This document shows positions 1 through 41,889 of a stretch of DNA of 41,889 nt, in pieces; the first letter of the stretch is position 1; the number at the start of each line of letters is the position of its first letter. The DNA comes from a virus. Under the pieces are notes generated by a model, which did not search any database, was not told the origin of the DNA, and saw only the letters and a program-made list of their open reading frames with translations. The DNA lies in the IMG/VR virus record IMGVR_UViG_3300005764_000007, positions 1 to 41,889 of that record. The stretch is one strand, 5' to 3'. The position numbers and the translations under genes are program-made.

Positions 1-120
1 CAGATCGCGGGCGTCAAGGCCAACACGATTCAAGGCGCGATTGTCGCGGGTCAGATCGGCTCCGTATCAGCTACGACCATTCAGGGTGTTGTCGTCTCCT
101 CGCAGTTAGCGGACGGCATC
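1..120. repeat. Terminal direct repeat, copy 1 (identical to 41770..41889); circularisation/assembly overlap
   Basis: Bases 1-120 read identically to 41770-41889, and one ORF runs through both copies in the same frame. Confidence 0.95.
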
Positions 121-1329
121 ATAGACGACTTGGCGAAGTATGCGACCGCGCTGCGTCCAGTGCCGATGCTATCGACAGTACCCACGCTGCCCGATCCGAA
201 TTATCCGCCTGACACGTTCTTCTATTACGTTCCTGACGGTCACTTCTACCGGATCAATTCAGCGGGCACGGGCTGGACGCTGGACGATAACCCGCAGAAC
301 ACGGTGATGAAGTTCTACCACATCGGAGCGATCAGCGCGAGCTCGATCACGGGGCTTATCGTGGCGGCGCAGATCGGCAGCATCACAGCGGGACAGATCA
401 CGGGGCAGATTCAGGCCAGCCAGATTCAAGCCGTGAATGCTTCGAGCATCAACGGGCAAGTGAACGCGTCGCAGATCAGCACGGTTAACGCGAGCTCCAT
501 ACAAGGCTCGATCAGCGCTTCTCAGATAGCGACCATCAACGCCACGCAGATCACGGGTAGCATCATCGCGAGTCAGATCAGTACCGTTAACGCAACCACG
601 ATCACAATCGGGCAGATCGTAGATGGGCAGATCGCGAACATCAGCGCATCCAAGCTGACTCTGGGCACGCTGCAAGTAGGCGCGCAGAGCAACATGCCCG
701 GAGTGATCAACGTCTACGGCCCGAGCTCGCTGGTTGCGCAGATCGGCATCTTGAGCGGCGGCTTCTATGGCGGATGGTTCCAGGTCTTCGGAGCGGGCGG
801 CACGGGCTACGCTGACGCGAAGGTGAAGACCGACGCGGGCAATCTATTTCTGACTGACTGCACTCTGAACATCTCGAATCAGATCAAGACGAGCCCGACA
901 ACGTTCGATAGCACGTACAGCACCCTTGCGCTGAACAATGACAACGGCACGGACAAGGCGTCTTTCATCTCGCGCGGCATGGTGTTCTATTACGCGGGCG
1001 GCAAGATCGGCTCACTCATCCGCACGGGCACGGGCGGCACATATCTGGAGTTAGAGATGAACGCGGGCGGCTCGTCCTACGTGCTGATCAATGGCCCGAG
1101 CGGAGTGCGCAGTGATCAGGGCTTTGCAGTGGGCGGCGCGCGGGTGATCAACAGTAGCGGCGCTTTTACGGGTGCGGGCGTCTCGTGTCTGAGCAACGGC
1201 ATCGCGGGCGCGGGCTTCAACCCGTTCATCGGCGGCACGCAATACTTTGGCGTGAGCAGCGGATCATTTACGACCGCAGACGGCAAGACAGCGACGGTGC
1301 GCGGCGGCGTCATCGTGGCGCTTGGATAA
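1..1329 (+). CDS. Tail-tip / fibre protein, 3' part of the ORF that starts at 40477 and wraps the window junction
   Basis: Frame 1 is open from base 1 (QIAGVKANTIQGAIVAGQIG...) into the listed 130..1329 ORF, with the stop at 1327-1329. It has 17-aa repeats followed by a Gly-rich C-terminal domain. It sits after the tape measure gene. Confidence 0.85.
   Translation, partial: QIAGVKANTIQGAIVAGQIGSVSATTIQGVVVSSQLADGIIDDLAKYATALRPVPMLSTVPTLPDPNYPPDTFFYYVPDGHFYRINSAGTGWTLDDNPQNTVMKFYHIGAISASSITGLIVAAQIGSITAGQITGQIQASQIQAVNASSINGQVNASQISTVNASSIQGSISASQIATINATQITGSIIASQISTVNATTITIGQIVDGQIANISASKLTLGTLQVGAQSNMPGVINVYGPSSLVAQIGILSGGFYGGWFQVFGAGGTGYADAKVKTDAGNLFLTDCTLNISNQIKTSPTTFDSTYSTLALNNDNGTDKASFISRGMVFYYAGGKIGSLIRTGTGGTYLELEMNAGGSSYVLINGPSGVRSDQGFAVGGARVINSSGAFTGAGVSCLSNGIAGAGFNPFIGGTQYFGVSSGSFTTADGKTATVRGGVIVALG
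325..672 (+). repeat. In-frame tandem 17-residue (51-nt) repeats, block 2, consensus xASQIxTVNAxxIxGxI
   Basis: Units read from the translation: VAAQIGSITAGQITGQI / QASQIQAVNASSINGQV / NASQISTVNASSIQGSI / SASQIATINATQITGSI / IASQISTVNATTITIGQI / VDGQIANISASKLTLGTL. Confidence 0.85.
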
Positions 1330-1338
1330 AGAGGAGTT

Positions 1339-4635: not shown

Positions 4636-4645
4636 GGGGGTCGCT

Positions 4646-5328: not shown

Positions 5329-5347
5329 GACGTAACCGCTCGCCTAA

Positions 5348-5387
5348 CCTATCTTTCGGTCGCTCCGCGCGCTGGCTGAAAGATAGG
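5348..5387. repeat. Perfect 10-bp inverted repeat (CCTATCTTTC / GAAAGATAGG) with a 20-nt spacer between convergent genes
   Basis: Read directly: 5348-5357 is the reverse complement of 5378-5387. There is no flanking T-run, so it is not a canonical intrinsic terminator. Confidence 0.6.
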
Positions 5388-15248: not shown

Positions 15249-15455
15249 ATGAACAAATTTAGATATCACGCCCCGCTCGATCCTGAATGCCCCATAGTCG
15301 CTGGATATCGCCGCGCGATGTACGCCGACCCCATGACGGAGTGCGCGCCGTCCGATGTGCTGCGCGAGCTCGCTGAAGACTGGAGCCGCTCGCATCGCAG
15401 CAAGTGTGCGCGCTGCGCTGAGTACGGAGCCGCGAACATCGAGGTGATGGGCTAA
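15249..15455 (+). CDS. Hypothetical protein (68 aa)
   Basis: ATGA overlap with the 15040-frame ORF stop, and TAATG overlap with the integrase start. Confidence 0.55.
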   Translation: MNKFRYHAPLDPECPIVAGYRRAMYADPMTECAPSDVLRELAEDWSRSHRSKCARCAEYGAANIEVMG

Positions 15456-18826: not shown

Positions 18827-18876
18827 GTGAGAGAACCCAATGCCTGAAAAGCGCCCCACGCCAGAAAGGACTTCAA

Positions 18877-25052: not shown

Positions 25053-25380
25053 AGGCGCACATCAAGAGTGCAGACATCCGCGCTGCTCAGCGTACGCAGT
25101 AGCAGAAGGCTTCTGCTCAGCGCACAGATACTATCTGCGCGAGCGCATCGCAGGACCGAAGGGCTCTAATCTCACCACGCATAACAAGCGCTTCATGTGG
25201 ATGCGTCGCGCATTCATGAGTCAGCATCCGTTCTGCGCTGTGTGCAGTGACGTTGCAAGCGTGCTCGATCACATCACTCCGCATCGGGGCAACCGCAATC
25301 TGTTCTGGGATCAAACGAATTGGCAAGCGCTGTGCAAGCCTTGTCATGCGCGCAAGACGGCGCGTGAGATTTATGCATAG
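25045..25380 (+). CDS. HNH endonuclease (terminase-associated type)
   Basis: CAVCSDVASVLDHITPHRGNRNLFWDQTNWQALCKPCHARKT is the classic phage HNH layout. It lies just upstream of the terminase genes. Confidence 0.9.
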   Translation: MPEGAHQECRHPRCSAYAVAEGFCSAHRYYLRERIAGPKGSNLTTHNKRFMWMRRAFMSQHPFCAVCSDVASVLDHITPHRGNRNLFWDQTNWQALCKPCHARKTAREIYA

Positions 25381-25657: not shown

Positions 25658-27103
25658 ATGACTGCTAGCGTACAGACTGCTCCTACTATGCAAGCTGCGA
25701 TTAGTACCGAGCATTGGCCGCTGTCGCGCTTTATCCCCTACGCGCGCAATCCGCGCAAGAACGATCACGCCGTAGAGCAGATGATGGCTTCCATTCGAGA
25801 ATTCGGATTCAAAATTCCGATACTCGCGCGCAGCGACGGCAGCGTAGTGGATGGGCACTTGCGCCTGAAAGCAGCGGAGCGCTTGAAGCTGGAGCCGCTG
25901 CCCGTGATCTTGTGCGATGAGTGGAGCGCTACTCAAGTCAAAGCATTCCGGCTGCTCGTCAACCGATCGGTTGCTTGGGCCGATTGGGACGAAGAGCTCC
26001 TCGCGCTGGAGATGCAAGACCTGAAGGAGCTCGATTATGACTTAGCGCTGACGGGCTTCGACGCATCCGAGATCGACGACTTATTCAAGCCCAAGAACGA
26101 AGAAGAGCGCGCCAAGATTCCAGAAGCCGAAGCGCTGCTCAACACAGCGTGGCGCGAGTGGTGCGCGGAGTGTCTCGCAGCGGTGGACGCGCTTAGCGCG
26201 CTGCGCGTAGTGTCCGTGGGGCTCAATCGCAGCGCCGCTAAGATACGCTTTGTAAACGCGCTCTACTATCAAAAGCATTTCCCGCGCTATGCTACGTGGG
26301 CTTATCATCCGCACAAGCTGACGACAGCGGGCGATGCGCGCAGCTTGCGTCAGTTGCTCGAAGACGTCAATGCTACAGCGCATGATGGAAAGTGCAGACC
26401 CGGAGACACGAACATTGAGCGCTTGCGCTTCCATTCGCAAGACGAGCCGATCTGGGACCGCTTTCTGCAATCCGGGCTTGCGTGCGCTGGAGCGCGTCAG
26501 CCGCTGGACTTTCCAGCCGAGCTCGCGCAGTCGCTGATCAATGAGTTTGCGCCCGAAGGAGCGCGCGTGCTCGATCCCTGCCACGGCTGGGGCGGGCGCT
26601 TAGCGGGTTTCCTGCTATCGCACGCGAGCGAGTATCTGGGCTTCGACCCGTCGCCGGAGACTCATGCGGGCGTCGAGCTCATGCGCGATGACTTGCTGGG
26701 CTACACGCGCGACAAGACAGCCGAGCTCCGAGAGCAGTGCTTCGAGGATGCGAAGCTGCCCGCGAATCATTTCGACTTTGCGCTGACATCGCCACCGTAC
26801 TATGACACGGAGAAATACACCGGAGAGCAGCAATCATACAAACGCTATTTGACATTCGAGCAATGGAGCGCTAAGTTTTATCGCCCGCTGATCGAGCGCA
26901 CGCTGCGCGCGCTGAAGCCCGGATGCGTGTTTGCGCTGCAAGTGGGCAATCAGACCTATCCGCTCGAAGCTGAAGCGAAGAAGCACGCCGCAGCGTGCAA
27001 AGCGGAGTACATGGAGACGCGCGCGAGCGACATGGTCAACGCGTTTCACAACACCGCGCCCGAAGAAGGCGAAGTGATCGTGCTACTACGGAAGGTAAGA
27101 TAG
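25658..27103 (+). CDS. ParB-like N-terminal domain fused to a SAM-dependent DNA methyltransferase (SPPY catalytic motif; N4-C or N6-A)
   Basis: ParB box: FIPYARNPRKNDHAVEQMMASIREFGFKIPILA..GSVVDGHLRLKAA. MTase motif I VLDPCHGWGG and motif IV FALTSPPYYD. GGGGAG RBS. Confidence 0.85.
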   Translation: MTASVQTAPTMQAAISTEHWPLSRFIPYARNPRKNDHAVEQMMASIREFGFKIPILARSDGSVVDGHLRLKAAERLKLEPLPVILCDEWSATQVKAFRLLVNRSVAWADWDEELLALEMQDLKELDYDLALTGFDASEIDDLFKPKNEEERAKIPEAEALLNTAWREWCAECLAAVDALSALRVVSVGLNRSAAKIRFVNALYYQKHFPRYATWAYHPHKLTTAGDARSLRQLLEDVNATAHDGKCRPGDTNIERLRFHSQDEPIWDRFLQSGLACAGARQPLDFPAELAQSLINEFAPEGARVLDPCHGWGGRLAGFLLSHASEYLGFDPSPETHAGVELMRDDLLGYTRDKTAELREQCFEDAKLPANHFDFALTSPPYYDTEKYTGEQQSYKRYLTFEQWSAKFYRPLIERTLRALKPGCVFALQVGNQTYPLEAEAKKHAAACKAEYMETRASDMVNAFHNTAPEEGEVIVLLRKVR

Positions 27104-27578: not shown

Positions 27579-29276
27579 ATGCCGACCGCTACGCGCACAT
27601 CTCCGTTTGTTGCGCGTGCGGCGGAGTACGTCCGTGATGTCAAGGCTGACAAGTTTCCGGCGTGCCGATGGGTCAAGCTGGCCTGCGAACGTCACGAGCG
27701 CGACTTAGAGCGCGCCAAGCACAAGCGCTCACCGATCTACTTCGATGAAGAAGCCGCGCATCGCGTCTGCGCGATAGTTGAGCACTTCCCGCACATCAAG
27801 GGCGACTGGGCGCAGCGACGGCAGCGCATCGCGCTCCAGGGCTGGCAGTGCTTCATCCTGTGCTCCGTCTTCGGCTGGAAGTGGAGCGCGACCGACATGC
27901 GCCGCTATCGCGTGGTGTATATCGAAGTCGCGCGCAAGAACGCGAAGAGCACGCTTACTTCAGCAGTGGGCCTGTATCTCTTCGCGTGCGACGGCGAGCA
28001 GGGCGCGCACGTAGTCAGCGCGGCGAACACGCGCGATCAGGCCAAGATCATCTTCGGCGACGCGCAGATGATGGCGCGCAAAGAGGCGGGCTTCCGCAGC
28101 AAGTTCGGCGTGGAAGTGCGCGCGCATGTCATCGCGCAGCCCGACACAGCGAGTAAGTTCGAAGCGCTGAGCGCTGAGTACTCCAACTTAGACGGGCTCA
28201 ACTTGCACGCTGCGCTGATCGATGAGCTACACGCGCACCCGTCGCGGCAACTGTGGGACGTGCTGGAGACGGCCACGGGCTCGCGCGCGCAGCCGCTGAT
28301 CTGGGCCGTAACGACTGCGGGCCTGAATCGCGCGAGCGTCTGTTACGATCAGCGCGCGCATGTGATCGATGTACTAGAGCAGCGCATGGAAGATGACTCC
28401 TACTTCGGGATCATCTACACGCGCGATGAGGGCGATGACCCGTGGGATGAGAACACGTGGCGCAAAGCCAACCCCAATTACGAAATATCCGTGTACCCGG
28501 AGAGTCTGCGCAGCGAGAGCAAGCGCGCTCAGCAGATGCCCTCCGCGCAAGTCGCATTCTTTAACAAGCATCTCGACATCTGGACCAACGCAGCGATTAC
28601 CTGGCTCCCTGCGGGCGCGTGGGACGCGTGCGCCGATCCTGACTTAGACATCGAGGACTTTGCGCGAGAAGCGTGCTATGTGGGCATCGATCTCGCGCTG
28701 CGCTCCGATATCGCAGCCGTGATCATTGCGTTTCCGCCCAATGGAGTGCGCGACTGGTGGGCCGTCTTCGGTCGCTACTATCTGCCCGAAGAAACCGTGC
28801 AGCGCGCGGAGAACACGCACTATCAGGGCTGGGAAGCAGTGGGACGGCTGATCGCGACGCCCAACAAAGTTACAGACTTTGCCTACATCATCGCCAATCT
28901 GGGCGACATCGCCGCGCAGTATGACGTGCGTGAGATTGCGCTGGACCCCTACGATGCTGGACCGCTCATCAACGATATCGAGAAAGCGGGACTGAAGAAG
29001 CCCGTCGAAGTGCGGCAGATCGCGCCCAACTTCTCGCCCGCCATGGTGGAGCTCGAAGGGCTCGTGCTCTCTAAGCGCATCCGTCATGACGGCGATCCGG
29101 TGCTGGCCTGGATGTTCTCTAACGTCAAAGTCGAGCGCAGCGGCGATCTGCTCCGTCCTACGAAGGAATTCGAAGAGAAGAAGATTGACGGCGTAGTGAG
29201 TCTGCTCATGTGCATTCATCGCGCGATGAAAACGGAGACGCCCCCTGACTACTCGAAGGGCATATGGGTTATATAG
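27579..29276 (+). CDS. terL: Terminase large subunit
   Basis: 565 aa with a Walker-A-like VARKNAKST, then ...IDELHAH..., and a C-terminal nuclease region. Its position and size fit HK97-type TerL. Confidence 0.9.
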   Translation: MPTATRTSPFVARAAEYVRDVKADKFPACRWVKLACERHERDLERAKHKRSPIYFDEEAAHRVCAIVEHFPHIKGDWAQRRQRIALQGWQCFILCSVFGWKWSATDMRRYRVVYIEVARKNAKSTLTSAVGLYLFACDGEQGAHVVSAANTRDQAKIIFGDAQMMARKEAGFRSKFGVEVRAHVIAQPDTASKFEALSAEYSNLDGLNLHAALIDELHAHPSRQLWDVLETATGSRAQPLIWAVTTAGLNRASVCYDQRAHVIDVLEQRMEDDSYFGIIYTRDEGDDPWDENTWRKANPNYEISVYPESLRSESKRAQQMPSAQVAFFNKHLDIWTNAAITWLPAGAWDACADPDLDIEDFAREACYVGIDLALRSDIAAVIIAFPPNGVRDWWAVFGRYYLPEETVQRAENTHYQGWEAVGRLIATPNKVTDFAYIIANLGDIAAQYDVREIALDPYDAGPLINDIEKAGLKKPVEVRQIAPNFSPAMVELEGLVLSKRIRHDGDPVLAWMFSNVKVERSGDLLRPTKEFEEKKIDGVVSLLMCIHRAMKTETPPDYSKGIWVI

Positions 29277-30511
29277 ATCAGCTTCTCGCGAGCGCTAAGC
29301 GCTGGATGTCCGGTTTCATTCCGGTGCGCGGAGCGCAGAGTACTCCTGACGGCGCGGGCATCACGATCAACCCGACTGACTTCGGAGCAGACGCCGCGCT
29401 GCGCAGCGCGGCTTACTGGGCCTGTACGCGTCTAATCTCGTGCAGCGTCGCATCGCTGCCCACGCACATCTTCAAGGAAACCTCCGAAGGCAAGGTCAAG
29501 GCCGTCGAGCATCCGCTGTACGGAGTGCTCACGAAGCAGCCGAATCCGTGGATGACTAGCCAAGAGTTCTATCAGTGCATCGTCATGGGGCTGATGACTT
29601 ACGGCAACGGCTACGCGCTGCCCGACTTCCAGGAGGGCGATGCGATAGGATTGTGGCCGCTGCGACCGGAGCGCGTGAACACGTACTACTCGGCAGTGGA
29701 CGGCTCGCTGATGTACCGATACGTTGACTACTTCGGCAAGGTGTTCTTCTTTCGCCCGGAGCAGATCCTGCACTTCAGGACCTTCACGCTGGACGGCATC
29801 AACGGGCTCGCGCCGCTCGACTATCACAAGATCACTTTCGGCTTCGAGTCAGCCGCGCAGCTATATGCGAGCAGTTTGTACGGCAACGGCGGACGGCCCA
29901 GCGGCATCCTGGAGTTTCCGAATTCGCTACAGCCCGCGCAGAAAGAAGCCATCCGCGCAAGCTGGGCCACGATGCACGGCGGACCCGCTAACGTGGGCGC
30001 AGTCGCAGTGCTCGATGGCGGCGTGAAGTATACGCCCGTCAGCGCGCCGCTCGATCAGTTGCGCTACATCGAGGCGCAGAAGTTTTCCGTCGAGCAGATC
30101 GCGCGCATCTTCGGCGTGGCTCCGCATCTGATCGGCGCAGCTACGCAGCCCACCTACGCGAGCGTCGAGCAGCAATCGCTCGAATTCTTGCGCTACACGA
30201 TCCAGCCCATAGTGACGGGCATCGAGAGCACAATCCGTACGGCGCTGCTTCAGGAGCCCTACTTCTACAAGTTCAATATTGCGGGCTTCGAGCGCTCCGA
30301 CATCAGAACGCGCTATCTCGCGTACGGCAGCGGGCGTCAGTGGGGCTTCTTAAGCGTGAATGACATACGCGATCTCGAAGACATGAACCGCATTGGACCC
30401 GAAGGCGACATCTATCTGTCGCCGCTCAACATGGTGCCCGCTGGTACGGATCAGGCCCCAGATGCTACAACGCTGACGCAGCCGAAAGAAGAAGGAGTGA
30501 CGCAGCCATGA
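29264..30511 (+). CDS. Portal protein (HK97 family)
   Basis: 415 aa, between TerL and the prohead protease. AAYWACTRLIS...HPLYGVL..PNPWMTSQEF...GNGYA resembles HK97-type portals. Confidence 0.88.
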   Translation: MGYIDQLLASAKRWMSGFIPVRGAQSTPDGAGITINPTDFGADAALRSAAYWACTRLISCSVASLPTHIFKETSEGKVKAVEHPLYGVLTKQPNPWMTSQEFYQCIVMGLMTYGNGYALPDFQEGDAIGLWPLRPERVNTYYSAVDGSLMYRYVDYFGKVFFFRPEQILHFRTFTLDGINGLAPLDYHKITFGFESAAQLYASSLYGNGGRPSGILEFPNSLQPAQKEAIRASWATMHGGPANVGAVAVLDGGVKYTPVSAPLDQLRYIEAQKFSVEQIARIFGVAPHLIGAATQPTYASVEQQSLEFLRYTIQPIVTGIESTIRTALLQEPYFYKFNIAGFERSDIRTRYLAYGSGRQWGFLSVNDIRDLEDMNRIGPEGDIYLSPLNMVPAGTDQAPDATTLTQPKEEGVTQP

Positions 30512-31116
30512 CGCAGCCGCTATTCAAAACGTACCCGCTCGAAGTGCGAGCGGCGAATGACTCGCAACCCGCAGGAGTGATCAGCGGCTATGCTTCCACG
30601 TACGCGAAGGACGCTTACGGCGACAGAGTACTGCCCGGAGCGTTCGCAGCGTCGATAGCTGAAAAGCGCGGCAAGTATCCCTTGCTCTTCGGGCATGACT
30701 CCTCTTCTATCGTGGGCTTCACAACCCATCTGGCCGAAGACCACAAAGGGCTCATGATGGACGCGCAGCTATCGCTCGCGACATCGGGCGGCAAGGATGC
30801 CTACGAGCTCATCAAGACCGCTGAAGCGGTGGACTACAAGCTGGGCTTATCCATCGGATTCATTACGCGCGAGTGGGACATGGACGGAGATGTGCGCGTG
30901 TTGAAAGACATCGATCTGTGGGAAATCTCCCTCACTGCGTTTCCCGCCAATCGTCAGGCGCGCGTAGAAGAGGCGCGCTCGTTGCGCGGCAGGAGTGCCG
31001 CTGCTCAATCCCTGCTAGCTGTGATACGGCGCGACCGTTTGCAGTTAGCTCTCAGAACACCAAAGGAGAGAATGAACAATGGCATCACCTGCACTAGCTT
31101 TGGTATCAGACGTTGA
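30508..31116 (+). CDS. Prohead maturation protease (HK97 / S78 family)
   Basis: GYASTY...DAYGDRVLPGAF...PLLFGHD...GLSIGF...DIDLWEISLTAFPAN matches the HK97 protease core. ATGA overlap with the portal gene. Confidence 0.88.
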   Translation: MTQPLFKTYPLEVRAANDSQPAGVISGYASTYAKDAYGDRVLPGAFAASIAEKRGKYPLLFGHDSSSIVGFTTHLAEDHKGLMMDAQLSLATSGGKDAYELIKTAEAVDYKLGLSIGFITREWDMDGDVRVLKDIDLWEISLTAFPANRQARVEEARSLRGRSAAAQSLLAVIRRDRLQLALRTPKERMNNGITCTSFGIRR

Positions 31117-32392
31117 TCTGATCGCCGAATATCGCAAGCTGGGCGAAGAGAACTTCACCCTATGGAAAAAAGCGCTCGATGAGTTTCGCGTTAAGGGCGA
31201 AGTCACGGGCGAAACAAAGGAGCGCATCGAAAAGCTGGAAGCTGCAATGACCGAGCTCAGCGAGAAGATGCTGGCCGAGTTTCGCAAGCTGAACGAAAAG
31301 AGCTCGCGCCCGCCCGTCAGCATCGCGAACGGTCGCGGCTACGGCGGAGATGGCGAGTTCCGCTCTATCGGCGTGCAGTTTACGGAGCTCGCAGACTACA
31401 AGAGCTATCAGGCCAATCCCACGAATAGGCCGCGCTTCCAGACTACGCTCAAGGGCCGCATCATTCAGCCCATGGAGTTACGCGCCGTCAATCCGTTCAT
31501 CGCCAGCGAAACATCGGGCATTGTGTACATTCCCAAGCGCGTGGGTGTGTTCACTCAGCCCACGATCCCGCTCGTCATGCGCGATCTGCTCGATGTCATT
31601 CCGCTCGATGGCACGAACGCCGTAGAGTACGTCATCGAGGCGTGGCAACTGAATGCCGACTATCAGATCAAAGAAGGCGACAAGAAAGCGCAGTCCGATG
31701 TCACGTACACGGATAAGACCGCAGTAGTGCGGACCATTGCGCACTATGTCGTCATCAGCAGACAGATGCTCGCTGACGCGCCCTTCATTCAGGCCAGCAT
31801 CGATAACCGCATGGTCTACGGCATCGCGCTGAAAGAAGACAAAGAGATCCTATACGGCGACGGTGCGACGGGTCACTTGCTGGGCATCATGCCGCAAGCC
31901 ACTCCGTTTGCTGGAGGCGCGCTGACGATCGATAACGCGATTGATCAGGTGTACGCAGCGATGGTGCAGATCATGCAGGCGGGCTATGCGCCCACTGCCA
32001 TCGTGATGAACCCCGTGGACTTCGCGGGCATCGCGCTGATGAAGAACACGATGGGCATGTATCTGCTCGGCGGGCCTCCAGCGTCCGAAGCGACGCCGCG
32101 ACTGTGGGGCTTGCCTATCGCGCTCACGATGAACATGGCTCCGGGCGACTTTCTGGTCGGCGCGTTTCCGGGCAACGCTGCGCTCTTCGACCGTCAGCAG
32201 ACAGTAGTCGAAGTGAGCAGCGAAAACGAAGATAACTTCGTCCGCAACTTGGTCACGATCCGCGCGGAGGAGCGCGTGACGCTGGCCGTATTCGTGCCCG
32301 CTGCATTCGTCAAGGGCACGGTGATGCCGCCCGCTGCGCTCGCATCCGGGCATCATCCGCCCGCGCAGCAACCCAGCCGCGATAGGAAATAA
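31079..32392 (+). CDS. Major capsid protein (HK97 fold) with an N-terminal coiled-coil delta domain
   Basis: AAGGAGAG RBS. The delta-like N-terminus is rich in E/K heptads, and the gene follows the protease gene. 437 aa. Confidence 0.88.
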   Translation: MASPALALVSDVDLIAEYRKLGEENFTLWKKALDEFRVKGEVTGETKERIEKLEAAMTELSEKMLAEFRKLNEKSSRPPVSIANGRGYGGDGEFRSIGVQFTELADYKSYQANPTNRPRFQTTLKGRIIQPMELRAVNPFIASETSGIVYIPKRVGVFTQPTIPLVMRDLLDVIPLDGTNAVEYVIEAWQLNADYQIKEGDKKAQSDVTYTDKTAVVRTIAHYVVISRQMLADAPFIQASIDNRMVYGIALKEDKEILYGDGATGHLLGIMPQATPFAGGALTIDNAIDQVYAAMVQIMQAGYAPTAIVMNPVDFAGIALMKNTMGMYLLGGPPASEATPRLWGLPIALTMNMAPGDFLVGAFPGNAALFDRQQTVVEVSSENEDNFVRNLVTIRAEERVTLAVFVPAAFVKGTVMPPAALASGHHPPAQQPSRDRK

Positions 32393-33601: not shown

Positions 33602-34063
33602 ATGCCCGCTCCGGTCTTGAGCTCGCTCGATCCGAAAGTACAGGCTATCTTCGATGCGCTGGACGCATACATACAGGGCACGAGCTGGGCCAACGCGACG
33701 GCTAGCGTGATGCTCACTGGCTCCCAGACTACGCACACGATCACTACTGCTGATCGAACGAATAGCAACGGCGTCAGCTACACGGAGCGCATCGCGGGAG
33801 TGAGGGTCACTATCGACCCCATGAGCGTTACGCTCAGCCCTGGTCAGTCGCAGCAATTCACGGCGGCGGCCTACAATCCTGACGGCTCCGCTGCGAGCGG
33901 CACATTCACCTGGACGCTGACGCAGGGCGCACCGGGAACGCTCGATGCGAACGGGCTGTACACTGCGCCCGCATCGCTGGCTGGACCCGCGAGCGCGCAA
34001 GTTAACGCAGCTTTCAGCGACGGGCAAGCGTGGGCGTCCGCGACAGTCGCCCTACAGCCATGA
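33602..34063 (+). CDS. Ig-like (Big_2-type) domain protein
   Basis: VTIDPMSVTLSPGQSQQFTAAAYNPDGS...TFTWTL...LDANGLYTAP matches the bacterial Ig-like group 2 pattern. Confidence 0.7.
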   Translation: MPAPVLSSLDPKVQAIFDALDAYIQGTSWANATASVMLTGSQTTHTITTADRTNSNGVSYTERIAGVRVTIDPMSVTLSPGQSQQFTAAAYNPDGSAASGTFTWTLTQGAPGTLDANGLYTAPASLAGPASAQVNAAFSDGQAWASATVALQP

Positions 34064-36629: not shown

Positions 36630-36700
36630 GACAGCGGGCATAGTGCTGCTACTGCTCGCAGCGCTGGCGTGCTTGTGGCTATTGCACATGAGGACTCATC

Positions 36701-39700
36701 ATGACTGACGCAGGGGACATCAAAGCCAGAGCAACGCTAGATAACGCCGAGTTTATGGGCGCGCTCAAGGCGATGGGCGATGAGATCGGCAAGAGCGCTC
36801 AGAGCGCGGCCACTTCGCTTCAATCCATCACGTCAGGCTTCGGCGCAATCACGGATGCACTCGCGGGCATCGGCGCGGCAGTGGGGCTCAGCGAATTCGC
36901 GAAGCAGTGTCTGGATGTCACGAACAAAGTAGACGCGCTGAGCGCGGCCTTCAAAGCGCTGAACGGACCCACGCAAGAAACGGCGGATCTCTTAGAGACG
37001 CTGCAAGGCATGGAGTTCAAATCGCTCTATGACTTCGAGGACACGCTAGGCCCAGCCGCGAAGAACATGCTCATGTTGGGCGTCTCCGCTGATGACACGG
37101 CGAAGGCGATGCAAGCGCTCGCCGATCAAGCTGCGGCGATGAAGGAGGGGCCGCAGTACATCGAAGAAGTCAGCAACGCGCTCGCGAAGATGAATAGCCA
37201 TGTTGTCGCGAATCAGCGCGACATGAAGGCGCTCCAGCAATTCGGCATCGATGCGTACGGAGCGCTCGCGCGCGAGATCGGCACGAGCGTACCGAATGCC
37301 ATCGAAGAAGTGAAGAAAGGCATGATCAGCGCGCAGACCGTTATACAAGCGGTCACGGCTGACATGGAGAAGAACTTTGGCGGCGCGGCTGAGCGCTCGC
37401 TCGATAGCTGGAAAGGCGCAATGCACGTGCTCAGCGAGAGCACGGAAGAAGCGCAGCAAGCTATCGGGCGCGTGATCAAGGATGTCTTTACCGACATCGC
37501 GCCGATCATCAAAGCTGCCGCCGACGAGATTCTAAAGCTGGTCGATATCTTCAAGGATCTGCCCACCCCGGTAAAGGACGCGATCATCATCATCCCCATA
37601 GCTACGGGCATGGTCGCCGCGCTCGCTGTCGCATTCGGCGCGCTGGGCATCGCGCTCGAAGCCGTCTCCTTCAACCCGATCACGCTGGCTATCGGGGCCG
37701 CAGTGGGCGCGCTCGCGCTCTTGGGCAAGTGGGTCTATGACAACTGGCCCGCGATCAAAGCAGTTATCGATGAGCTAGGCACGGACTTCGTTGCGGCGGG
37801 CAATGCGCTCGCCAACGCCTTCGCTCCGGTAGTCGCGATATGGAAGCCGCTATGGGCTGATCTGGTCGCGGCGCTGCAATATTCGTGGGACTCGATCAAG
37901 TCAGCGCTCGACACATTCAAAGGCGCACTGGGTAGCTTCTTCGGCTGGATCGGCGATCTGTTCGCGAAGATTCCGGGCATGTCCGATGAGTGGAAGAAGC
38001 TAGGCGACATCTGGACAACCGAAGAGCAGAAGTTAGCGGACGCGAAAGCCGCGACTGACGCGAAGAAGAAGTCCGATGATGAAGCCGCCGCAGCATCCGC
38101 GAATCTGCGCAAAGAAGCGCAGCAACAGCAAGCGCAGGAGCTCGCCGCTGCGAACGCTGCGAAGGCCGCAGCCGCTGAGCGCAAGAAAGAAGAAGAAGCA
38201 GCTAAGAAGGCCGCGGAAGAGCAGAAGAAGCTGACCGCCGACACGCTGCGCGGCTACGAAGCGCTGAAGGCCATTGCGCCCGATGTCGCTGAATCCTTCG
38301 CTACCGCTATGGGCGGCATCCAGGAGGAGACAGACAAGACCGCGAAGATATTCGGCGCTGCATGGCCGAAGATGTCGGACGCGCAGAAGCAAGCGGCTAC
38401 GGATACAATCGCGCTGGGCGACGCCTTCAAGACGCTGGGCGTCACTACTACTGCGCAGCTTGAAGACGCGGCGACTAACGCGGAGAAGGCGTATCAGCGC
38501 ATCCAGGCATCGGGCCGCGCATCGGCTGATGATCTCGTGCTGGCGATGGATGCCGTGTACGCAGCCCATCAGAAGGTGGCCGATCATCTCAACGCCGACG
38601 TGAAGAAGGCGTATGACGACGGCGCGATTACAGCGCAGGAGTATTACTCCACGATCGCAGCGCGCGCGCAAGCGGCTTACGATGAGGTCGAAGCTGCGTA
38701 CGCTTCCGGTGAGGCCAGTTATGCCGAGCTCAAGGCTTCAGAGAAGACGCTGGACGATGCGCGCACTGCTGAAGCTAAGAGTAATTCGAAGGAGATGGCG
38801 GACGCCTACCATGAGTTCGGCGTCAAGACGCAGGAGGAGCTCGACAAGGCTACAGCCGCGCACGCTGCGTACAAAGCCATCGTAGACGCGACAGCGGACA
38901 GCGCGACCAAAGCCGCTATCGCGTTTAAGGATCTGGGCGTCACGAGCTCACAAGCGCAGACGGATAGCCTGAATAAGTTAGCGGACGCGTACGCGCGCGT
39001 GGAGACTGCGGCGCGGCAGGGGCTCGCGACAGACAGCGACTTATACGCCGCATCGCAGAAGCTACAGACTGCAACCCAGCAGCATGTTGACTACCTGAAT
39101 CAGAAGTGGCAGGACGCGTACAAGAATGGCGAGATCACCGCGAAGCAGATGTATACGCATCTAGTCGAAGCGGCGGGCGACTATCTTGCGCAAGTCCAGG
39201 CTACGAGCGACGGCAGCGAAGCCTCGATGCAAAAGGTTAACGCTGCGATCAAGGCGCTTCAGGATGCCATCGAGAAGCTGCGCGTCGCGACGGCTACCGA
39301 TCTCAATCAGGCGTTTCACGATCTGGGCGTCAAGAGCCAAGCCGAATGGGAAGCGATGCGCACGAAAGCGGAGACGGAGTATCAGCGCATCGCAGACAGC
39401 GCGGGCGCAAACTCGATCATCGCCAAAGAAGCGTGGGTCAACAAAACCAAAGAAGCGTACACCGCGATTCTCCAGGAGGGCGGAACGCTCACGGAGAAGC
39501 AGAAGTCAGAGCTCGACCGCCAGGAGACGCAGTTACAGCAACATCTCGACACTTCCAAATCGATGTGGAAGACCGCCTACGACGGCATCAAGAGTACGCT
39601 CGATACGTTCGTAGATGACTCGATCAATAAGCTGGTGACGGGCGATCTCAGCTTCGGCGCAAGCGTGAAGTCCATGCTCGAAGGACTGGGAACTACGGTC

Positions 39701-40480
39701 ATCAACACGTTCATTGCGCCCTTCAAGAAAGCCATCACCGATTTCATCGCTAACGAGATGGCCGATCTGTTAGGCCCGAAGGGGCTGGGCGGAATCACTG
39801 ACAGCCTGAAGAGCATCGGTACTGGAATCACCAGCATCTTCGGCGGCGGAGCGAGCGCGGCGGGCGGGGTTGCGAGCGGCGTAGGCGAAGCGGGCAGCGC
39901 AGTAGGGGGAGCAGCGGGCGGCGCGGGCAGCGCTGCTGGCAGCGTGTCTGGCGCAGCGGCGGGCAGCATTGCAAGCGTGGTCAACGTAGTCAGCGGAGTA
40001 GTGAGCGCGATCACTGGAGTTATCGGGGTGTTTCAGTCGGCCAAGCAGGAGACCACCCTGAACGCCATCGAACACAACACGCGCTACACCATGATGTACG
40101 TGGGTGATCGCGCAGACGGCGGCATCCTGGGTCAGATGTTCAAGCTGAATGAAGAGCTCGCATACGGCACGCTGACAAAGGCCATGGAGAAGCACCGGGA
40201 TAACTTCTATGACTGGACGGGCGTTATTAATCCGATCCTCATCACCATGCGTGACTCGCTGGCGCTGAACATCGCGCCCAAGATGGACGGCCTCTTGATG
40301 ACCGTGGAAAAGATCAGCGACTATACGCAGACGATGATCGATCAGCTATCGAAGAGCGACGCAGCGCGCAACATCACGGTGAACGTGAGCCCGCAAGGGC
40401 TGACCACGCAGGATGCGGCGCGCGCGCTGGGCAATCAGATCGCGGCGAATCTCTCTACTCAAATGGTGCCCGTAGCGTGA
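36701..40480 (+). CDS. Tape measure protein (1259 aa)
   Basis: It is the largest gene. It has long Ala/Lys/Glu coiled-coil regions, a hydrophobic segment (IIIIPIATGMVAALAVAFGALGIALEAV...) and a Gly/Ala/Ser-rich C-terminal stretch. It lies after the chaperone genes. Confidence 0.92.
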   Translation: MTDAGDIKARATLDNAEFMGALKAMGDEIGKSAQSAATSLQSITSGFGAITDALAGIGAAVGLSEFAKQCLDVTNKVDALSAAFKALNGPTQETADLLETLQGMEFKSLYDFEDTLGPAAKNMLMLGVSADDTAKAMQALADQAAAMKEGPQYIEEVSNALAKMNSHVVANQRDMKALQQFGIDAYGALAREIGTSVPNAIEEVKKGMISAQTVIQAVTADMEKNFGGAAERSLDSWKGAMHVLSESTEEAQQAIGRVIKDVFTDIAPIIKAAADEILKLVDIFKDLPTPVKDAIIIIPIATGMVAALAVAFGALGIALEAVSFNPITLAIGAAVGALALLGKWVYDNWPAIKAVIDELGTDFVAAGNALANAFAPVVAIWKPLWADLVAALQYSWDSIKSALDTFKGALGSFFGWIGDLFAKIPGMSDEWKKLGDIWTTEEQKLADAKAATDAKKKSDDEAAAASANLRKEAQQQQAQELAAANAAKAAAAERKKEEEAAKKAAEEQKKLTADTLRGYEALKAIAPDVAESFATAMGGIQEETDKTAKIFGAAWPKMSDAQKQAATDTIALGDAFKTLGVTTTAQLEDAATNAEKAYQRIQASGRASADDLVLAMDAVYAAHQKVADHLNADVKKAYDDGAITAQEYYSTIAARAQAAYDEVEAAYASGEASYAELKASEKTLDDARTAEAKSNSKEMADAYHEFGVKTQEELDKATAAHAAYKAIVDATADSATKAAIAFKDLGVTSSQAQTDSLNKLADAYARVETAARQGLATDSDLYAASQKLQTATQQHVDYLNQKWQDAYKNGEITAKQMYTHLVEAAGDYLAQVQATSDGSEASMQKVNAAIKALQDAIEKLRVATATDLNQAFHDLGVKSQAEWEAMRTKAETEYQRIADSAGANSIIAKEAWVNKTKEAYTAILQEGGTLTEKQKSELDRQETQLQQHLDTSKSMWKTAYDGIKSTLDTFVDDSINKLVTGDLSFGASVKSMLEGLGTTVINTFIAPFKKAITDFIANEMADLLGPKGLGGITDSLKSIGTGITSIFGGGASAAGGVASGVGEAGSAVGGAAGGAGSAAGSVSGAAAGSIASVVNVVSGVVSAITGVIGVFQSAKQETTLNAIEHNTRYTMMYVGDRADGGILGQMFKLNEELAYGTLTKAMEKHRDNFYDWTGVINPILITMRDSLALNIAPKMDGLLMTVEKISDYTQTMIDQLSKSDAARNITVNVSPQGLTTQDAARALGNQIAANLSTQMVPVA

Positions 40481-41889
40481 ATGCGCTGATCTACATTAAC
40501 GGCAATGACGTAACCAACGCGTGCCGCTTACAGGATACGCGCATCAATTACGACAGTTCGAAGCGCATCACTACCGCGCAGATTACGGTGATGGGCCGCA
40601 CGCTGGGACGTGAAGCGCGCTATGACTACGCGCACTATGACGAAGATTCGTACTCCATAGCGCTGCGCGAGCTCTATCAGGTCACGATATTCGACGGGCG
40701 CGACGGCGTGACGAAACTCTTCGACGGGCAAATCACCGCGCTGGACATGGAGCAAAGCGACGGACCGACGTTCGAAGTCTTCTACAAAGTCAGCATGAAT
40801 GATTGGGCCGCATGGCTGGATCGCGCCGTGTGCTGGGATTCGGGCTTCATGCTGCCGCTGCCCTCCAGCGATCAGAACATCATCGCCGCGCTGCTATCGA
40901 ACTTCTGCCCGAAAGTGCATCTCAACCCAGATAACATCGCGGAGCTAGTGCCCGTCATCGAGTCCTTCGACTGGCTAACGAAGACGTGTCGTCAGGTGCT
41001 CGATGACGTATGCACGCTGAGCATGGGCGAGTGGCGCATAGACTTTGACGCGAATCTGTACTACGGCCCTGCGAGCGCTGCGCGGCCCGCGCCCTACAAT
41101 CTCTCGACAAGCCCGGACTATGTGAGCACGTTTCCGGTGCGCGTCGAAGGCTATCGCCATGACTTCAGCAACCCCATCAATCATGCATACGTGCGCGGCG
41201 CGGTCGATCCTGCGAGCGGCATCTGGGTCACTGCGAACTATTCCGATCCCGTCAGCGTCGCAACGTACGGCGAGTATTCGAGCGCGGTGGTCGATCAGCA
41301 GATAACAACGGGCTGGGACGCAGCGCTGCGCGCGAAGAGCATGGTGTTGCAGAATGCGTACCCCACGGAGCAAGGCAACTTCACGGTGTGGACAGACGAC
41401 CTCCAGTGCGGAATGCAAGTGCATATCACGGAGGAGAATCTAGGCATTGACGGCGATTACACGATCCGCGCGCTATCGCTTCAGTGGGAAGACAATCACA
41501 CCGTCCGCTATGAGGCGCAGTTTGGCGCGGCGCAGCCCGATCTCGAAACCGTGCTGCGTCTGCTCCAGCTACGCGCGCGCTGGCAGAGCTCGACGCAAAG
41601 CGTAGGCTCACCCGCTCCGGGCAGCGTCACTGACGCGAGCATTGCGGCTGGAGGCTTGCACGCCGAGAGCATCTCGACAGTAAACGCCAACACGATCATG
41701 GGCGCTATTCAGGCGTCGCAGATCGCGACTGTGAACGCGGGCGCTATCGTGGGCGCGATCACTTCGGATCAGATCGCGGGCGTCAAGGCCAACACGATTC
41801 AAGGCGCGATTGTCGCGGGTCAGATCGGCTCCGTATCAGCTACGACCATTCAGGGTGTTGTCGTCTCCTCGCAGTTAGCGGACGGCATC
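40477..41889 (+). CDS. Tail-tip / host-specificity protein, 5' part. The ORF has no stop before the window end and continues through the junction to 1329, giving about 873 aa on the circular map
   Basis: The GTG at 40477 overlaps the tape measure stop (GTGA). My translation (VNALIYINGNDVTNACRLQDTRINYDSSKRITTAQITVMG...) has no stop to 41889 and is in frame with ORF 130..1329. Confidence 0.85.
   Translation, partial: MNALIYINGNDVTNACRLQDTRINYDSSKRITTAQITVMGRTLGREARYDYAHYDEDSYSIALRELYQVTIFDGRDGVTKLFDGQITALDMEQSDGPTFEVFYKVSMNDWAAWLDRAVCWDSGFMLPLPSSDQNIIAALLSNFCPKVHLNPDNIAELVPVIESFDWLTKTCRQVLDDVCTLSMGEWRIDFDANLYYGPASAARPAPYNLSTSPDYVSTFPVRVEGYRHDFSNPINHAYVRGAVDPASGIWVTANYSDPVSVATYGEYSSAVVDQQITTGWDAALRAKSMVLQNAYPTEQGNFTVWTDDLQCGMQVHITEENLGIDGDYTIRALSLQWEDNHTVRYEAQFGAAQPDLETVLRLLQLRARWQSSTQSVGSPAPGSVTDASIAAGGLHAESISTVNANTIMGAIQASQIATVNAGAIVGAITSDQIAGVKANTIQGAIVAGQIGSVSATTIQGVVVSSQLADGI
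41659..41889 (+). repeat. In-frame tandem 17-residue repeats, block 1 (QASQIATVNAGAIVGAI / TSDQIAGVKANTIQGAI / VAGQIGSVSATTIQGVV)
   Basis: Read from my translation of the 3' end of the window. The periodicity and consensus match block 2 (325-672). Confidence 0.8.
41770..41889. repeat. Terminal direct repeat, copy 2 (identical to 1..120)
   Basis: Exact 120-nt identity with the window start. Confidence 0.95.

What the first reader, a model, noticed from the sequence alone, without database searches (positions are those of the whole stretch)
1..41889. Selective hexamer usage: GAGCTC strongly enriched while CAGCTG, CTGCAG, CTCGAG and GAGCTG/CAGCTC appear purged by synonymous codon-pair choice
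A line-by-line manual count found about 80 GAGCTC sites (I counted 81, and the count is error-prone). A mononucleotide model for a sequence of this size that is visibly about 60% GC gives a rough expectation of 10-20. In the same read-through I found no CAGCTG, no CTGCAG, no CTCGAG and no CAGCTC, and only one GAGCTG (33682-33687, in acg agc tgg). The coding sequence appears to steer around these sites. Glu-Leu is written GAG-CTC, GAG-CTA or GAA-CTG (e.g. 20265-20273 GAG CTC GAA; 11091 GAA CTG), never GAG-CTG. Gln-Leu is CAA-CTG (19941-19946) or CAG followed by the rare codons TTA/TTG/CTT/CTA (103-108 CAG TTA; 20560-20565 CAG CTT; about 41556 CAG CTA), never CAG-CTG or CAG-CTC. Leu-Gln is CTG-CAA (670-675) or CTC/CTT/CTA/TTG-CAG, never CTG-CAG. 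After CTC, Glu is always GAA. AAGCTG, CTGGAG, GAATTC, GATC and GCGCGC are all common, so this is not a general palindrome or codon effect. It looks like targeted restriction-site avoidance (PvuII-, PstI-, XhoI- and AceIII-type specificities) combined with tolerance or selection of SacI-type GAGCTC. GAGCTC might be protected by one of the two phage methyltransferases (17802-18470, 25658-27103).
Basis: seen in the sequence. Interest (0 to 1): 0.75.

Follow-up and report, generated by a model that had tools for sequence, protein, structure and literature searches.

The report
Phage genome purged of restriction sites
This complete 41.8-kb genome of an uncultured soil phage has used synonymous codon choice to remove about twenty different six-base restriction-enzyme target words, and the excess of GAGCTC is mostly a side effect of that purge, so it is a clean, extreme example of a known anti-restriction strategy rather than a new mechanism.

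Summary
The counts are exact: GAGCTC 81; CAGCTG, CTGCAG, CTCGAG and CAGCTC 0; GAGCTG 1. Shuffles that keep every protein and each gene's codon usage expect 9-31 copies of each missing word and 30-47 GAGCTC.

The purge is wider than reported. Twenty six-base palindromes sit at 31% of expectation or less, and the other palindromes are neutral. GCCGG, CAGCTC and AAGCTC are also depleted on both strands. In 4x4 flank tables essentially only the palindromic cells are emptied. This DNA-level, strand-symmetric pattern is the classic signature of selection by Type II restriction enzymes.

The GAGCTC excess is mostly a by-product. Glu-Leu is common. GAG is used 91% of the time before any codon starting with C. 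GAG-CTG and GAG-CTT are excluded. A null with these constraints expects 65-68 GAGCTC, against 81 observed.

Relatives (terminase 56-74% identical) avoid different word sets. Eight have no GAGCTC at all, and the closest one avoids nothing.

Protection of GAGCTC by the phage methyltransferases is untested. Phages carrying homologues of the small C5 methyltransferase do not consistently keep GAGCTC. The host is unknown.

This is a known phenomenon. It is unusually broad for a phage that carries an integrase.

The parts
1..41889 (.). Whole contig: genome-wide removal of about 20 six-base palindromes, plus GCCGG/CCGGC, CAGCTC/GAGCTG and AAGCTC/GAGCTT. GAGCTC (81) and AAGCTG (59) show spill-over excess.
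   Evidence: Exact counts. Synonymous shuffle nulls. Flank tables. Constrained nulls.
1..120 (+). 120-nt terminal direct repeat, identical to 41770-41889. It marks a circularly closed assembly, so the unique genome is 41,769 bp and complete.
   Evidence: the repeat finder family D1, 100% identity. Circular recount leaves all word counts unchanged.
41770..41889 (+). Second copy of the terminal direct repeat.
33682..33687 (+). The only GAGCTG in the genome. It is out of frame (ACG AGC TGG) in gene 33602-34063.
20265..20273 (+). Example of the forced spelling GAG CTC GAA (Glu-Leu-Glu), which avoids GAGCTG and CTCGAG.
   Evidence: codon-pair tables
15455..17182 (+). Large serine recombinase (integrase). 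It suggests a temperate lifestyle.
   Evidence: Pfam Resolvase + Recombinase + Zn_ribbon_recom
17802..18470 (+). Small (222 aa) C5-cytosine methyltransferase-like protein. It has motifs I, IV (SPPCH here, SPPCQ in homologues) and VI (ENV), and only a very short variable segment where the target-recognition domain would be. Specificity unknown.
   Evidence: PF00145 N-terminal half, E 2e-7. PHROG DNA methyltransferase families. More than 7,700 homologues of 200-270 aa. Alignment A2.
25658..27103 (+). ParB-like N-terminal domain fused to an N6/N4-type DNA methyltransferase domain (SPPY motif). Specificity unknown.
   Evidence: Pfam ParB_N + N6_N4_Mtase. phrog_498 and ParB-like PHROG families such as phrog_620. 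Translation.
25045..25380 (+). HNH endonuclease upstream of the packaging genes.
   Evidence: PF01844
27111..27572 (+). Small terminase subunit.
   Evidence: Terminase_4 on the identical gene in metagenome contigs
27579..29276 (+). Large terminase subunit, used to find relatives.
29264..32392 (+). Portal, S78 prohead protease and HK97-type major capsid protein.
   Evidence: Pfam marks on identical genes
36701..40480 (+). 1259-aa ORF read as the tape-measure protein from its size and position after the head and tail genes. This is an inference; no family search was run.
   Evidence: ORF list; gene order

Best explanation
This is a complete, probably temperate, HK97-like tailed phage genome from soil metagenomes. 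It has been sculpted by selection against cleavage by many host restriction-modification systems. Wherever the protein sequence would allow one of about 20 six-base palindromes, or the asymmetric words GCCGG, CAGCTC and AAGCTC, a synonymous codon or codon pair that avoids the word has been fixed. That amounts to roughly 340 expected occurrences removed, about one per 120 bp. These counts and nulls are shown directly.

The excess of GAGCTC, and likewise of AAGCTG, is mainly spill-over. Glu-Leu is a frequent dipeptide. This genome strongly prefers G|C and avoids G|G and C|C at codon junctions, so Glu before a C-starting codon is GAG 91% of the time. GAG-CTG and GAG-CTT are excluded words, so Leu falls to CTC. 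Lys-Leu falls to AAG-CTG because AAG-CTC and AAG-CTT are excluded.

GAGCTC is simply in the neutral class of palindromes for this lineage, along with GAATTC, GCGCGC, AGCGCT, TGATCA and others. I infer that its host range lacks a SacI-type enzyme. Protection by a methyltransferase is a possible but unnecessary alternative.
For: Counts.

Depletion under three nulls that keep protein sequence and codon usage. For example, under the dinucleotide-preserving null CTGCAG is 0 against 21, CAGCTG 0 against 20, CTCGAG 0 against 18, CAGCTC/GAGCTG 1 against 43, GGCGCC 1 against 20 and GCCGG/CCGGC 12 against 105.

Bimodality: 20 palindromes at obs/exp 0.31 or less, the rest at 0.56-1.3 and GAGCTC at 1.73.

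Palindrome enrichment: 15 of 36 against 40 of 2540 below 0.2 of expectation.

Strand symmetry: z(word) against z(reverse complement) gives r = 0.39, and about 0 in shuffled replicates. CAGCTC 0 and GAGCTG 1, AAGCTC 1 and GAGCTT 1, CCGGC 7 and GCCGG 5 are each depleted on both strands.

Flank tables: for the cores TCGA, TGCA, GATC, GCGC, CGCG and GGCC, essentially only the palindromic cells are emptied.

Four-base sites are neutral once dinucleotides are kept.

Spill-over:
- GAG is 91% before C-starting codons, whatever the amino acid. Junction ratios are GC 1.56, CC 0.34 and GG 0.63.
- GAG-CTC is 56 of 80 Glu-Leu and AAG-CTG is 38 of 52 Lys-Leu.
- Constrained nulls from two independent starting sequences converge on GAGCTC 65-68 and AAGCTG 49.

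Comparative evidence:
- Relatives carry different avoided sets, and the closest relative (L001, 74%) carries none.
- Glu-Leu is spelled GAG-CTG in L004 and L007, GAA-CTG in L144, L146 and L006, and GAG-CTC in L005, according to which words are missing there.
- The invariant Glu216-Leu217 of the large terminase has six spellings in eight phages.

Literature: site avoidance is an established anti-restriction strategy and is mainly directed at orthodox Type II sites (PMC6286503).
Against: The host and its restriction enzymes are unknown, so no avoided word has been matched to a real enzyme.

About 13-16 GAGCTC copies (z about 3.5-5) remain above the best null. Half of this residue is in the frame xxG AGC TCx.

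According to PMC6286503, temperate phages more rarely eliminate sites completely, and asymmetric sites are rarely avoided. This phage has an integrase and does both.

The strong CC/GG depletion (rho* 0.62) is unexplained and could reflect something other than restriction.

The gene set used for the shuffles was picked by hand from ORFs and covers 88% of the genome.
Confidence: 0.85

Rival explanations
1. GAGCTC is positively selected, or is tolerated because the phage methylates it. Under this view one of the two phage methyltransferases makes GAGm5CTC or an equivalent, so SacI-type enzymes cannot cut and the word can accumulate or serve as a signal.
For: GAGCTC is the most over-represented hexamer under every null. 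A residue of about 13-16 copies persists after modelling displacement. GAGCTC is eliminated in eight relatives, which shows that SacI-type pressure exists in this phage family. The genome encodes a C5-type and an N6/N4-type methyltransferase.
Against: About 80% of the count is reproduced without any selection for the word. The share of Glu-Leu spelled GAG-CTC (70%) matches the share of Lys-Leu spelled AAG-CTG (73%), another 'best allowed' pair. The sites are spaced at random, with a gap coefficient of variation (CV) of 0.93. Phages with 61-64% identical small C5 methyltransferases have 0 observed against 8.0 expected, 2 against 7.7 and 6 against 2.5 GAGCTC. The small methyltransferase has almost no target-recognition segment, which does not suggest a six-base specificity. 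About twenty other palindromes are equally neutral without any special explanation.
Confidence: 0.1
2. The pattern is codon-pair (translational) bias or passive adoption of the host's oligonucleotide signature, not defence evasion.
For: Codon-junction dinucleotide preferences are very strong. They fully explain the GCGCGC and AGCGCT excess and the apparent depletion of four-base sites. The depletion of AGGAAG, CCGAGG and CCAAGG rests mainly on the coding strand and could be translational. Temperate phages do drift towards the host's composition (general knowledge).
Against: The depletions survive a dinucleotide-preserving null. Words and their reverse complements, which encode different dipeptides, are depleted together. 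Palindromes are about 25-fold enriched among eliminated words. Only palindromic cells are emptied in the flank tables. Relatives with 56-74% identical terminases have quite different sets, and one has none. Prophage regions with related terminases in bacterial genomes show little avoidance.
Confidence: 0.05
3. The words decayed by mutation: methylated cytosines in target words deaminate to thymine, as with CpG loss in vertebrates, so methylated sites disappear without selection.
For: The phage encodes a C5-type methyltransferase, and a prophage would also be methylated by its host. Most avoided words are rich in G+C.
Against: For GCCGG, the strongest signal, the transition neighbours are not enriched: GCTGG 0.99, GTCGG 0.80, GCCAG 0.75, GCCGA 0.90, ACCGG 1.01. 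The excess is in transversion neighbours: GCCCG 1.42, TCCGG 1.35, GCGGG 1.26. A/T-rich words such as AAGCTT and AGATCT are eliminated too. Twenty separate specificities would all have to be methylated.
Confidence: 0.03
4. General avoidance of palindromes for structural reasons such as hairpins, cruciforms or SbcCD-type nucleases.
For: Many palindromes are missing.
Against: About half of the testable six-base palindromes are neutral or enriched: GCGCGC 197 against 191, CGCGCG 158 against 151, AGCGCT 62 against 57 and GAGCTC 81 against 47. The missing set differs between relatives.
Confidence: 0.02

Closest known systems
Restriction-site avoidance in genomes of tailed phages (Rusinov et al. 2018, PMC6286503; earlier Sharp 1986 and Rocha, Danchin & Viari 2001, cited from my own knowledge)
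   Same: Short palindromic Type II target words are eliminated or nearly eliminated from a dsDNA phage genome by synonymous changes. Words not targeted are neutral. The pattern differs between related phages.
   Different: The breadth is unusual: about 20 six-base palindromes at 31% of expectation or less, 12 of them with no copies. It occurs in a phage that carries an integrase, whereas the survey found complete elimination notably rarer in temperate phages. Three asymmetric words (GCCGG, CAGCTC, AAGCTC) are also nearly eliminated, a class the survey found rarely avoided. The host is unknown, so the link to real enzymes is inferred.
Over-representation of one-mutation neighbours of avoided palindromes (Gelfand & Koonin 1997, cited from my own knowledge, not checked here)
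   Same: The enriched words GAGCTC and AAGCTG are single-base neighbours of eliminated words (GAGCTG, GAGCTT, AAGCTC, AAGCTT, CAGCTG). They rise to about the level predicted when those words are forbidden.
   Different: Here the spill-over is channelled by a very strong codon-junction rule (G|C preferred) and a frequent dipeptide. This gives an unusually large excess: 81 copies against about 13 expected from base composition.
Phage-encoded orphan DNA methyltransferases used as anti-restriction (for example the Dam- and Dcm-like enzymes of many temperate phages; general knowledge)
   Same: The genome carries two methyltransferase genes without partner endonucleases: a C5-type and a ParB-fused N6/N4-type.
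   Different: Their specificities are unknown. The extensive site avoidance shows they do not give blanket protection. The C5-type enzyme is far shorter (222 aa) than the characterised C5 enzymes I recall, such as M.HhaI at about 327 aa.

Membership tests
Restriction-site avoidance (anti-restriction by site elimination) | Target words are significantly rarer than expected when protein sequence, codon usage and dinucleotides are held fixed | tested here: met
   Fourteen hexamers and GCCGG fall at or below 0.15 of expectation; none does in shuffled replicates.
Restriction-site avoidance (anti-restriction by site elimination) | Depleted words are predominantly short palindromes (Type IIP-like), and non-targeted palindromes are neutral | tested here: met
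   15 of 36 palindromes against 40 of 2540 non-palindromes below 0.2; bimodal distribution; only palindromic cells emptied
Restriction-site avoidance (anti-restriction by site elimination) | Selection acts on double-stranded DNA, so a word and its reverse complement are depleted alike whatever the coding strand | tested here: met
   (r = 0.39 against about 0 in nulls); for CAGCTC/GAGCTG, AAGCTC/GAGCTT and CCGGC/GCCGG
Restriction-site avoidance (anti-restriction by site elimination) | Avoided words match the specificities of restriction enzymes in the host or host range | not testable with these tools
   Host unknown: no megablast match among phages, best prophage terminase 51% identical, tail protein and integrase scans uninformative. 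No REBASE access.
Restriction-site avoidance (anti-restriction by site elimination) | The pattern is specific to a lineage or host rather than to the phage family | tested here: met
   relatives have different eliminated sets, and L001 has none
C5-cytosine DNA methyltransferase (Pfam PF00145) | Catalytic motifs I (FxGxG), IV (PCQ) and VI (ENV) | tested here: met
   DLYCGLGGW, SPPCH (Q replaced by H in this copy; SPPCQ in homologues), IVENV
C5-cytosine DNA methyltransferase (Pfam PF00145) | Target-recognition domain plus motifs IX and X (GN) in the C-terminal half | tested here: inconclusive
   The Pfam match covers profile positions 4-114 of 324 only. The C-terminal part has a short variable segment and a conserved AKIPxxLxRxIA in place of GN. 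The AlphaFold model is poor there, with pLDDT below 50. Foldseek gave only generic Rossmann and methyltransferase folds.
SacI-type (GAGCTC) protective methylation by a phage enzyme | A methyltransferase that modifies GAGCTC | not testable with these tools
   Specificity cannot be read from the sequence. Indirect test: carriers of 61-64% identical enzymes do not consistently retain GAGCTC.
ParB-methyltransferase fusion of phages (phrog_498) | N-terminal ParB-like domain plus a C-terminal SAM-dependent DNA methyltransferase domain with a (D/N/S)PPY motif | tested here: met
   ParB_N below Pfam's cut-off but strong PHROG matches; LTSPPYYD motif; N6_N4_Mtase 31 bits against a cut-off of 26.7

The most novel reading that the evidence does not exclude
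The three asymmetric words that are nearly eliminated on both strands report host defence specificities that are not ordinary palindromic Type II enzymes. The words are GCCGG (12 against about 105), CAGCTC (1 against 43) and AAGCTC (2 against 27); the last two together read MAGCTC. The enzymes could be Type IIS, Type III or BREX-like. If so, the full 'avoidome' of this phage family could be read as a fingerprint of the restriction repertoire of uncultured soil hosts. A lesser possibility is that the 222-aa mini C5 methyltransferase family (more than 7,700 members) is what makes GAGCTC safe in this lineage.
Probability: 0.3. Interest if true: 0.45.

Novelty: new member of a known kind. Interest (0 to 1): 0.3.

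Why it matters
The finding adds no new mechanism. It is an unusually clean and broad case of restriction-site avoidance in an uncultured, integrase-bearing soil phage. It also comes with a set of relatives whose avoided word sets differ.

Such fingerprints could help match metagenomic phages to hosts and infer which restriction specificities are active in soil bacteria.

The analysis carries a methodological warning. A strongly over-represented word (GAGCTC, about six-fold over base composition) can arise passively from excluding its neighbours combined with a codon-junction rule. It should not be read as a functional motif without a constrained null.

Tried and rejected
- **Nearest phages.** Megablast of 20 kb against GenBank phages found no match. 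A protein search of the large terminase found at most 45% identity to cultured phages of assorted Proteobacteria, which says little about the host.
- **Host search.**
  - Terminase scans of 185,000 genomes gave at best 51% identity, in a Bryobacterales MAG (metagenome-assembled genome), with hits scattered over many phyla.
  - The tail protein scan gave only weak domain hits.
  - The integrase scan of metagenome contigs found nothing.
  - An exact look-up of the integrase found nothing on record.
  - Exact look-ups of the terminase and other proteins showed that they occur only in metagenomes.
  - A literature search for the run accessions found nothing.
- **Dinucleotide signature.** Comparison with the fetched loci gave no convincing host match.
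- **Small methyltransferase.** No PDB sequence match. The AlphaFold2 model had mean pLDDT 64 with a disordered C-terminal third. Foldseek returned only generic Rossmann and methyltransferase folds. None of this shows the specificity.
- **Other genes.** Pfam and PHROG searches of about 40 proteins found no known anti-restriction protein or repressor.
- **Rejected ideas.** Regular spacing of GAGCTC (gap CV 0.93). Methylation-driven decay. General palindrome avoidance. GCGCGC enrichment as a signal (it vanishes under the dinucleotide-preserving null).
- **Left ambiguous.** AGGAAG, CCGAGG and CCAAGG are absent, but the evidence rests mainly on the coding strand.


Full report
**What the window is.** The 41,889-base window is a whole metagenomic contig. 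Its first 120 bases are repeated exactly at its end, so it is a circularly closed assembly with 41,769 unique bases. Nearly all genes lie on the + strand.

It encodes:
- a large serine recombinase at 15455-17182;
- a 222-aa C5-methyltransferase-like protein at 17802-18470;
- a replication initiator at 18823-19806;
- an HNH endonuclease at 25045-25380;
- a ParB-methyltransferase fusion at 25658-27103;
- small and large terminase, portal, S78 protease and an HK97-type capsid protein;
- a 1259-aa ORF that I read as the tape-measure protein from its size and position.

No GenBank phage matches at the DNA level. Its proteins occur only in metagenome assemblies. The nearest relatives by terminase (56-74% identity) are viral contigs from metagenomes. 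From their JGI contig names I recognise these as mostly soil and rhizosphere samples; this rests on my own knowledge and was not verified. The host could not be identified.

**The observation.** The codon-pair statements hold:
- Glu-Leu is GAG-CTC in 56 of 80 cases and never GAG-CTG.
- Gln-Leu is never CAG-CTG or CAG-CTC.
- CTG-CAG and CTC-GAG never occur.

Two of the quoted example coordinates are wrong. This does not affect the claim.

**Is it more than chance?** I used three nulls that keep every protein sequence and each gene's codon usage.
- Plain synonymous shuffling expects 30.5 GAGCTC (z +12) and 12-26 copies of each missing word.
- Shuffling that also preserves all dinucleotides, including those across codon junctions, expects 44-47 GAGCTC. 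It removes the apparent excess of GCGCGC and AGCGCT and the apparent depletion of four-base sites. The hexamer depletions remain.
- A maximal-order Markov model agrees.

With a filter of expectation at least 9 and obs/exp at most 0.15, 14 real hexamers and the pentamer GCCGG pass. No hexamer passes in five shuffled replicates.

**What is really there.** The purge is much wider than the finding says.
- Under the dinucleotide-preserving null the six-base palindromes are bimodal. Twenty sit at obs/exp 0.31 or less: AAGCTT, AGATCT, AGGCCT, CAGCTG, CTCGAG, CTGCAG, GGATCC, GTCGAC, GTGCAC, GGCGCC, GACGTC, GCCGGC, CGGCCG, CCGCGG, GGGCCC, GCATGC, CCCGGG, ACATGT, TCCGGA and CGATCG.
- The remaining palindromes lie between 0.56 and 1.3, and GAGCTC is at 1.73.
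- Fifteen of 36 palindromes, but only 40 of 2540 non-palindromes, fall below 0.2.
- In 4x4 tables of flanking bases around TCGA, TGCA, GATC, GCGC, CGCG and GGCC, essentially only the palindromic cells are emptied and the off-diagonal cells are neutral.
- Three asymmetric words are nearly eliminated on both strands: GCCGG/CCGGC (5+7 against about 105), CAGCTC/GAGCTG (0+1 against 43) and AAGCTC/GAGCTT (1+1 against 27).
- Across 996 non-palindromic word pairs, the deviation of a word correlates with that of its reverse complement (r = 0.39, and about 0 in shuffled replicates). The two encode different dipeptides and almost all genes are on one strand, so the constraint acts on double-stranded DNA, not on translation.
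- About 340 expected occurrences have been removed, roughly one per 120 bp (sum over the words of six bases or fewer).

**Why GAGCTC is enriched.** Fifty-six of the 81 copies are in-frame Glu-Leu, 14 are xxG AGC TCx, 3 are in the third frame and 8 are outside my gene set.
- This genome has a strong codon-junction rule. The obs/exp ratios are G|C 1.56, C|C 0.34 and G|G 0.63.
- Glu is GAG in 91% of cases before any C-starting codon, whether Leu, Pro, His, Gln or Arg.
- After G-ending codons Leu is almost always CTN.
- With GAG-CTG and GAG-CTT excluded, CTC is what remains.
- In the same way Lys-Leu becomes AAG-CTG (38 of 52) because AAG-CTC and AAG-CTT are excluded.
- A dinucleotide-preserving shuffle that also refuses to create the four excluded NAGCTN words expects 65.4 +/- 2.7 GAGCTC and 56.8 AAGCTG.
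- With 33 automatically detected forbidden hexamers, and with two independent starting sequences, the chains converge on 65-68 GAGCTC and 49 AAGCTG.

About four-fifths of the count is therefore a passive consequence. A residue of 13-16 copies (z 3.5-5), half of it in the Ser-Ser frame, is unexplained. The sites are spaced at random, with a gap coefficient of variation (CV) of 0.93.

**Comparative evidence.**
- Relatives show the same kind of sculpting with different word sets. L005 lacks nearly all GATC and GGCC but has 38 CCGCGG. L007 lacks CCGCGG, CGGCCG and GCCGGC. L139, L149 and L210 each lack 8-11 of 18-26 testable palindromes.
- The closest relative, L001, shows no avoidance at all: the window's avoided set occurs 249 times against 271 expected.
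- GAGCTC itself is absent from eight relatives, whose dinucleotide-Markov expectations sum to about 30. It is retained and enriched only in the window and in L005, where GAGCTG is also absent.
- The spelling of Glu-Leu switches with the local exclusions: GAG-CTG in L004 and L007; GAA-CTG in L144, L146 and L006; GAA-CTC in L149.
- The invariant Glu216-Leu217 of the terminase has six spellings in eight phages.
- Prophage-like regions with related terminases in bacterial genomes show little avoidance.

This turnover among relatives is what shifting host restriction repertoires would produce. It argues against a family-wide functional role for GAGCTC.

**The methyltransferases.**
- The 222-aa protein has C5 motifs I, IV and VI. 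It lacks a recognisable target-recognition domain and the canonical motif X.
- It belongs to a very large family of 200-270-aa proteins, with more than 7,700 hits, found in the early regions of temperate-phage-like contigs.
- In this copy the nearly invariant PCQ is PCH.
- Three contigs carrying 61-64% identical copies have 0 observed against 8.0 expected, 2 against 7.7 and 6 against 2.5 GAGCTC. The enzyme does not go with GAGCTC tolerance, although specificities can differ at that distance.
- Structure prediction and fold search added nothing, and no PDB sequence matched.
- The ParB-fused enzyme has an SPPY motif. A positional counterpart exists in L001, which shows no avoidance.
- Neither specificity can be inferred here. 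The extent of avoidance shows that the two enzymes do not give general protection.

**Rivals.**
- Codon-pair bias or host-signature mimicry explains the GCGC- and CGCG-rich words and the four-base sites. It does not explain the strand-symmetric, palindrome-specific and lineage-specific eliminations.
- Methylation-driven decay is not supported. Transition neighbours of GCCGG are not enriched (ratios 0.75-1.01), while transversion neighbours are (up to 1.42).
- General palindrome avoidance is contradicted by the neutral class of palindromes.

**Comparison with what is known.** Recognition-site avoidance by phages is long established. A survey of about 4,000 viral genomes found it to be mainly directed at orthodox Type II sites. 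It found near-complete elimination in about a tenth of genomes, notably rarer complete elimination in temperate phages, and little avoidance of Type I, IIG and III sites (PMC6286503). The present genome fits this kind. Three things are less usual: the number of distinct words eliminated, the presence of an integrase, and the near-elimination of three asymmetric words. The rise of one-mutation neighbours of avoided palindromes is also a described effect (Gelfand & Koonin 1997, from my own knowledge).

**Verdict.** The restriction-avoidance reading is supported. 'Selection for GAGCTC' is largely an artefact of displacement. Methyltransferase protection is untested and unnecessary. This is a new member of a known kind, with modest interest.

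Noticed in passing
window 1-41889: Extreme dinucleotide signature: rho*(CC/GG) 0.62, GC 1.40, CG 1.35. At codon junctions C|C is 0.34 and G|G 0.63 of expectation. After C-ending codons Leu switches to TTR (for example GAC-TTA/TTG 14 against GAC-CTN 1). The closest relative, L001, has rho*(CC/GG) 0.82, while L142, L210 and L139 are also low (0.59-0.70). The cause is unknown. It could be a blunt way of thinning CC/GG-containing short sites, or a host signature.
   Followed up: partly
window 17802-18470; homologues P0001-P0120; loci L135, L137, L138: A very large family (more than 7,700 hits) of 200-270-aa 'mini' C5-methyltransferase-like proteins sits in the early regions of temperate-phage-like contigs. 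They have motifs I, IV and VI, a conserved LWGD, a variable insert and AKIPxxLxRxIA in place of motif X. No PDB chain matches by sequence. The window's copy has PCH instead of the near-invariant PCQ.
   Followed up: partly
window 1-41889 (word GCCGG/CCGGC): The strongest single depletion is an asymmetric pentamer: 12 copies against 105-136 expected, depleted whatever base flanks it. I know of no restriction enzyme with this site. The surviving CCGG sites are nearly all TCCGG or CCGGA.
   Followed up: partly
window 1-41889 (words AGGAAG, GAGGAA, CCGAGG, CCAAGG): AGGAAG and CTTCCT have no copies against about 12+4 expected (dinucleotide-preserving null). GAGGAA/TTCCTC has 1 copy against 19 under the plain synonymous shuffle. 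CCGAGG/CCTCGG and CCAAGG/CCTTGG have no copies. The expectation sits mostly on the coding strand, so a translational cause, such as avoidance of AAGGAAG-like ribosome-binding look-alikes, cannot be separated from restriction. GAGGAG is not avoided.
   Followed up: partly
L001 (IMGVR_UViG_3300047160_007231) against the window: The closest relative (terminase 74% identical) shows no palindrome avoidance at all, yet it also carries a ParB-methyltransferase fusion upstream of its terminase. The avoidance state therefore changes completely within this phage group.
   Followed up: partly
L005 (IMGVR_UViG_3300005764_000051): This relative has only 9 GATC and 10 GGCC in 12.7 kb. It has no AGCTG/CAGCT-containing hexamers but 38 CCGCGG. 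This is a different and equally extreme fingerprint.
   Followed up: no
window 1-120 and 41770-41889: An exact 120-nt terminal repeat shows that the contig is a circularly closed, complete genome of 41,769 bp.
   Followed up: yes
window 35177-35185 and 21694-21701: Several of the few surviving avoided words overlap each other: GGGCCCGGG (GGGCCC plus CCCGGG) and CGGCCGGC (CGGCCG plus GCCGGC). These could be constrained positions or recent changes.
   Followed up: no
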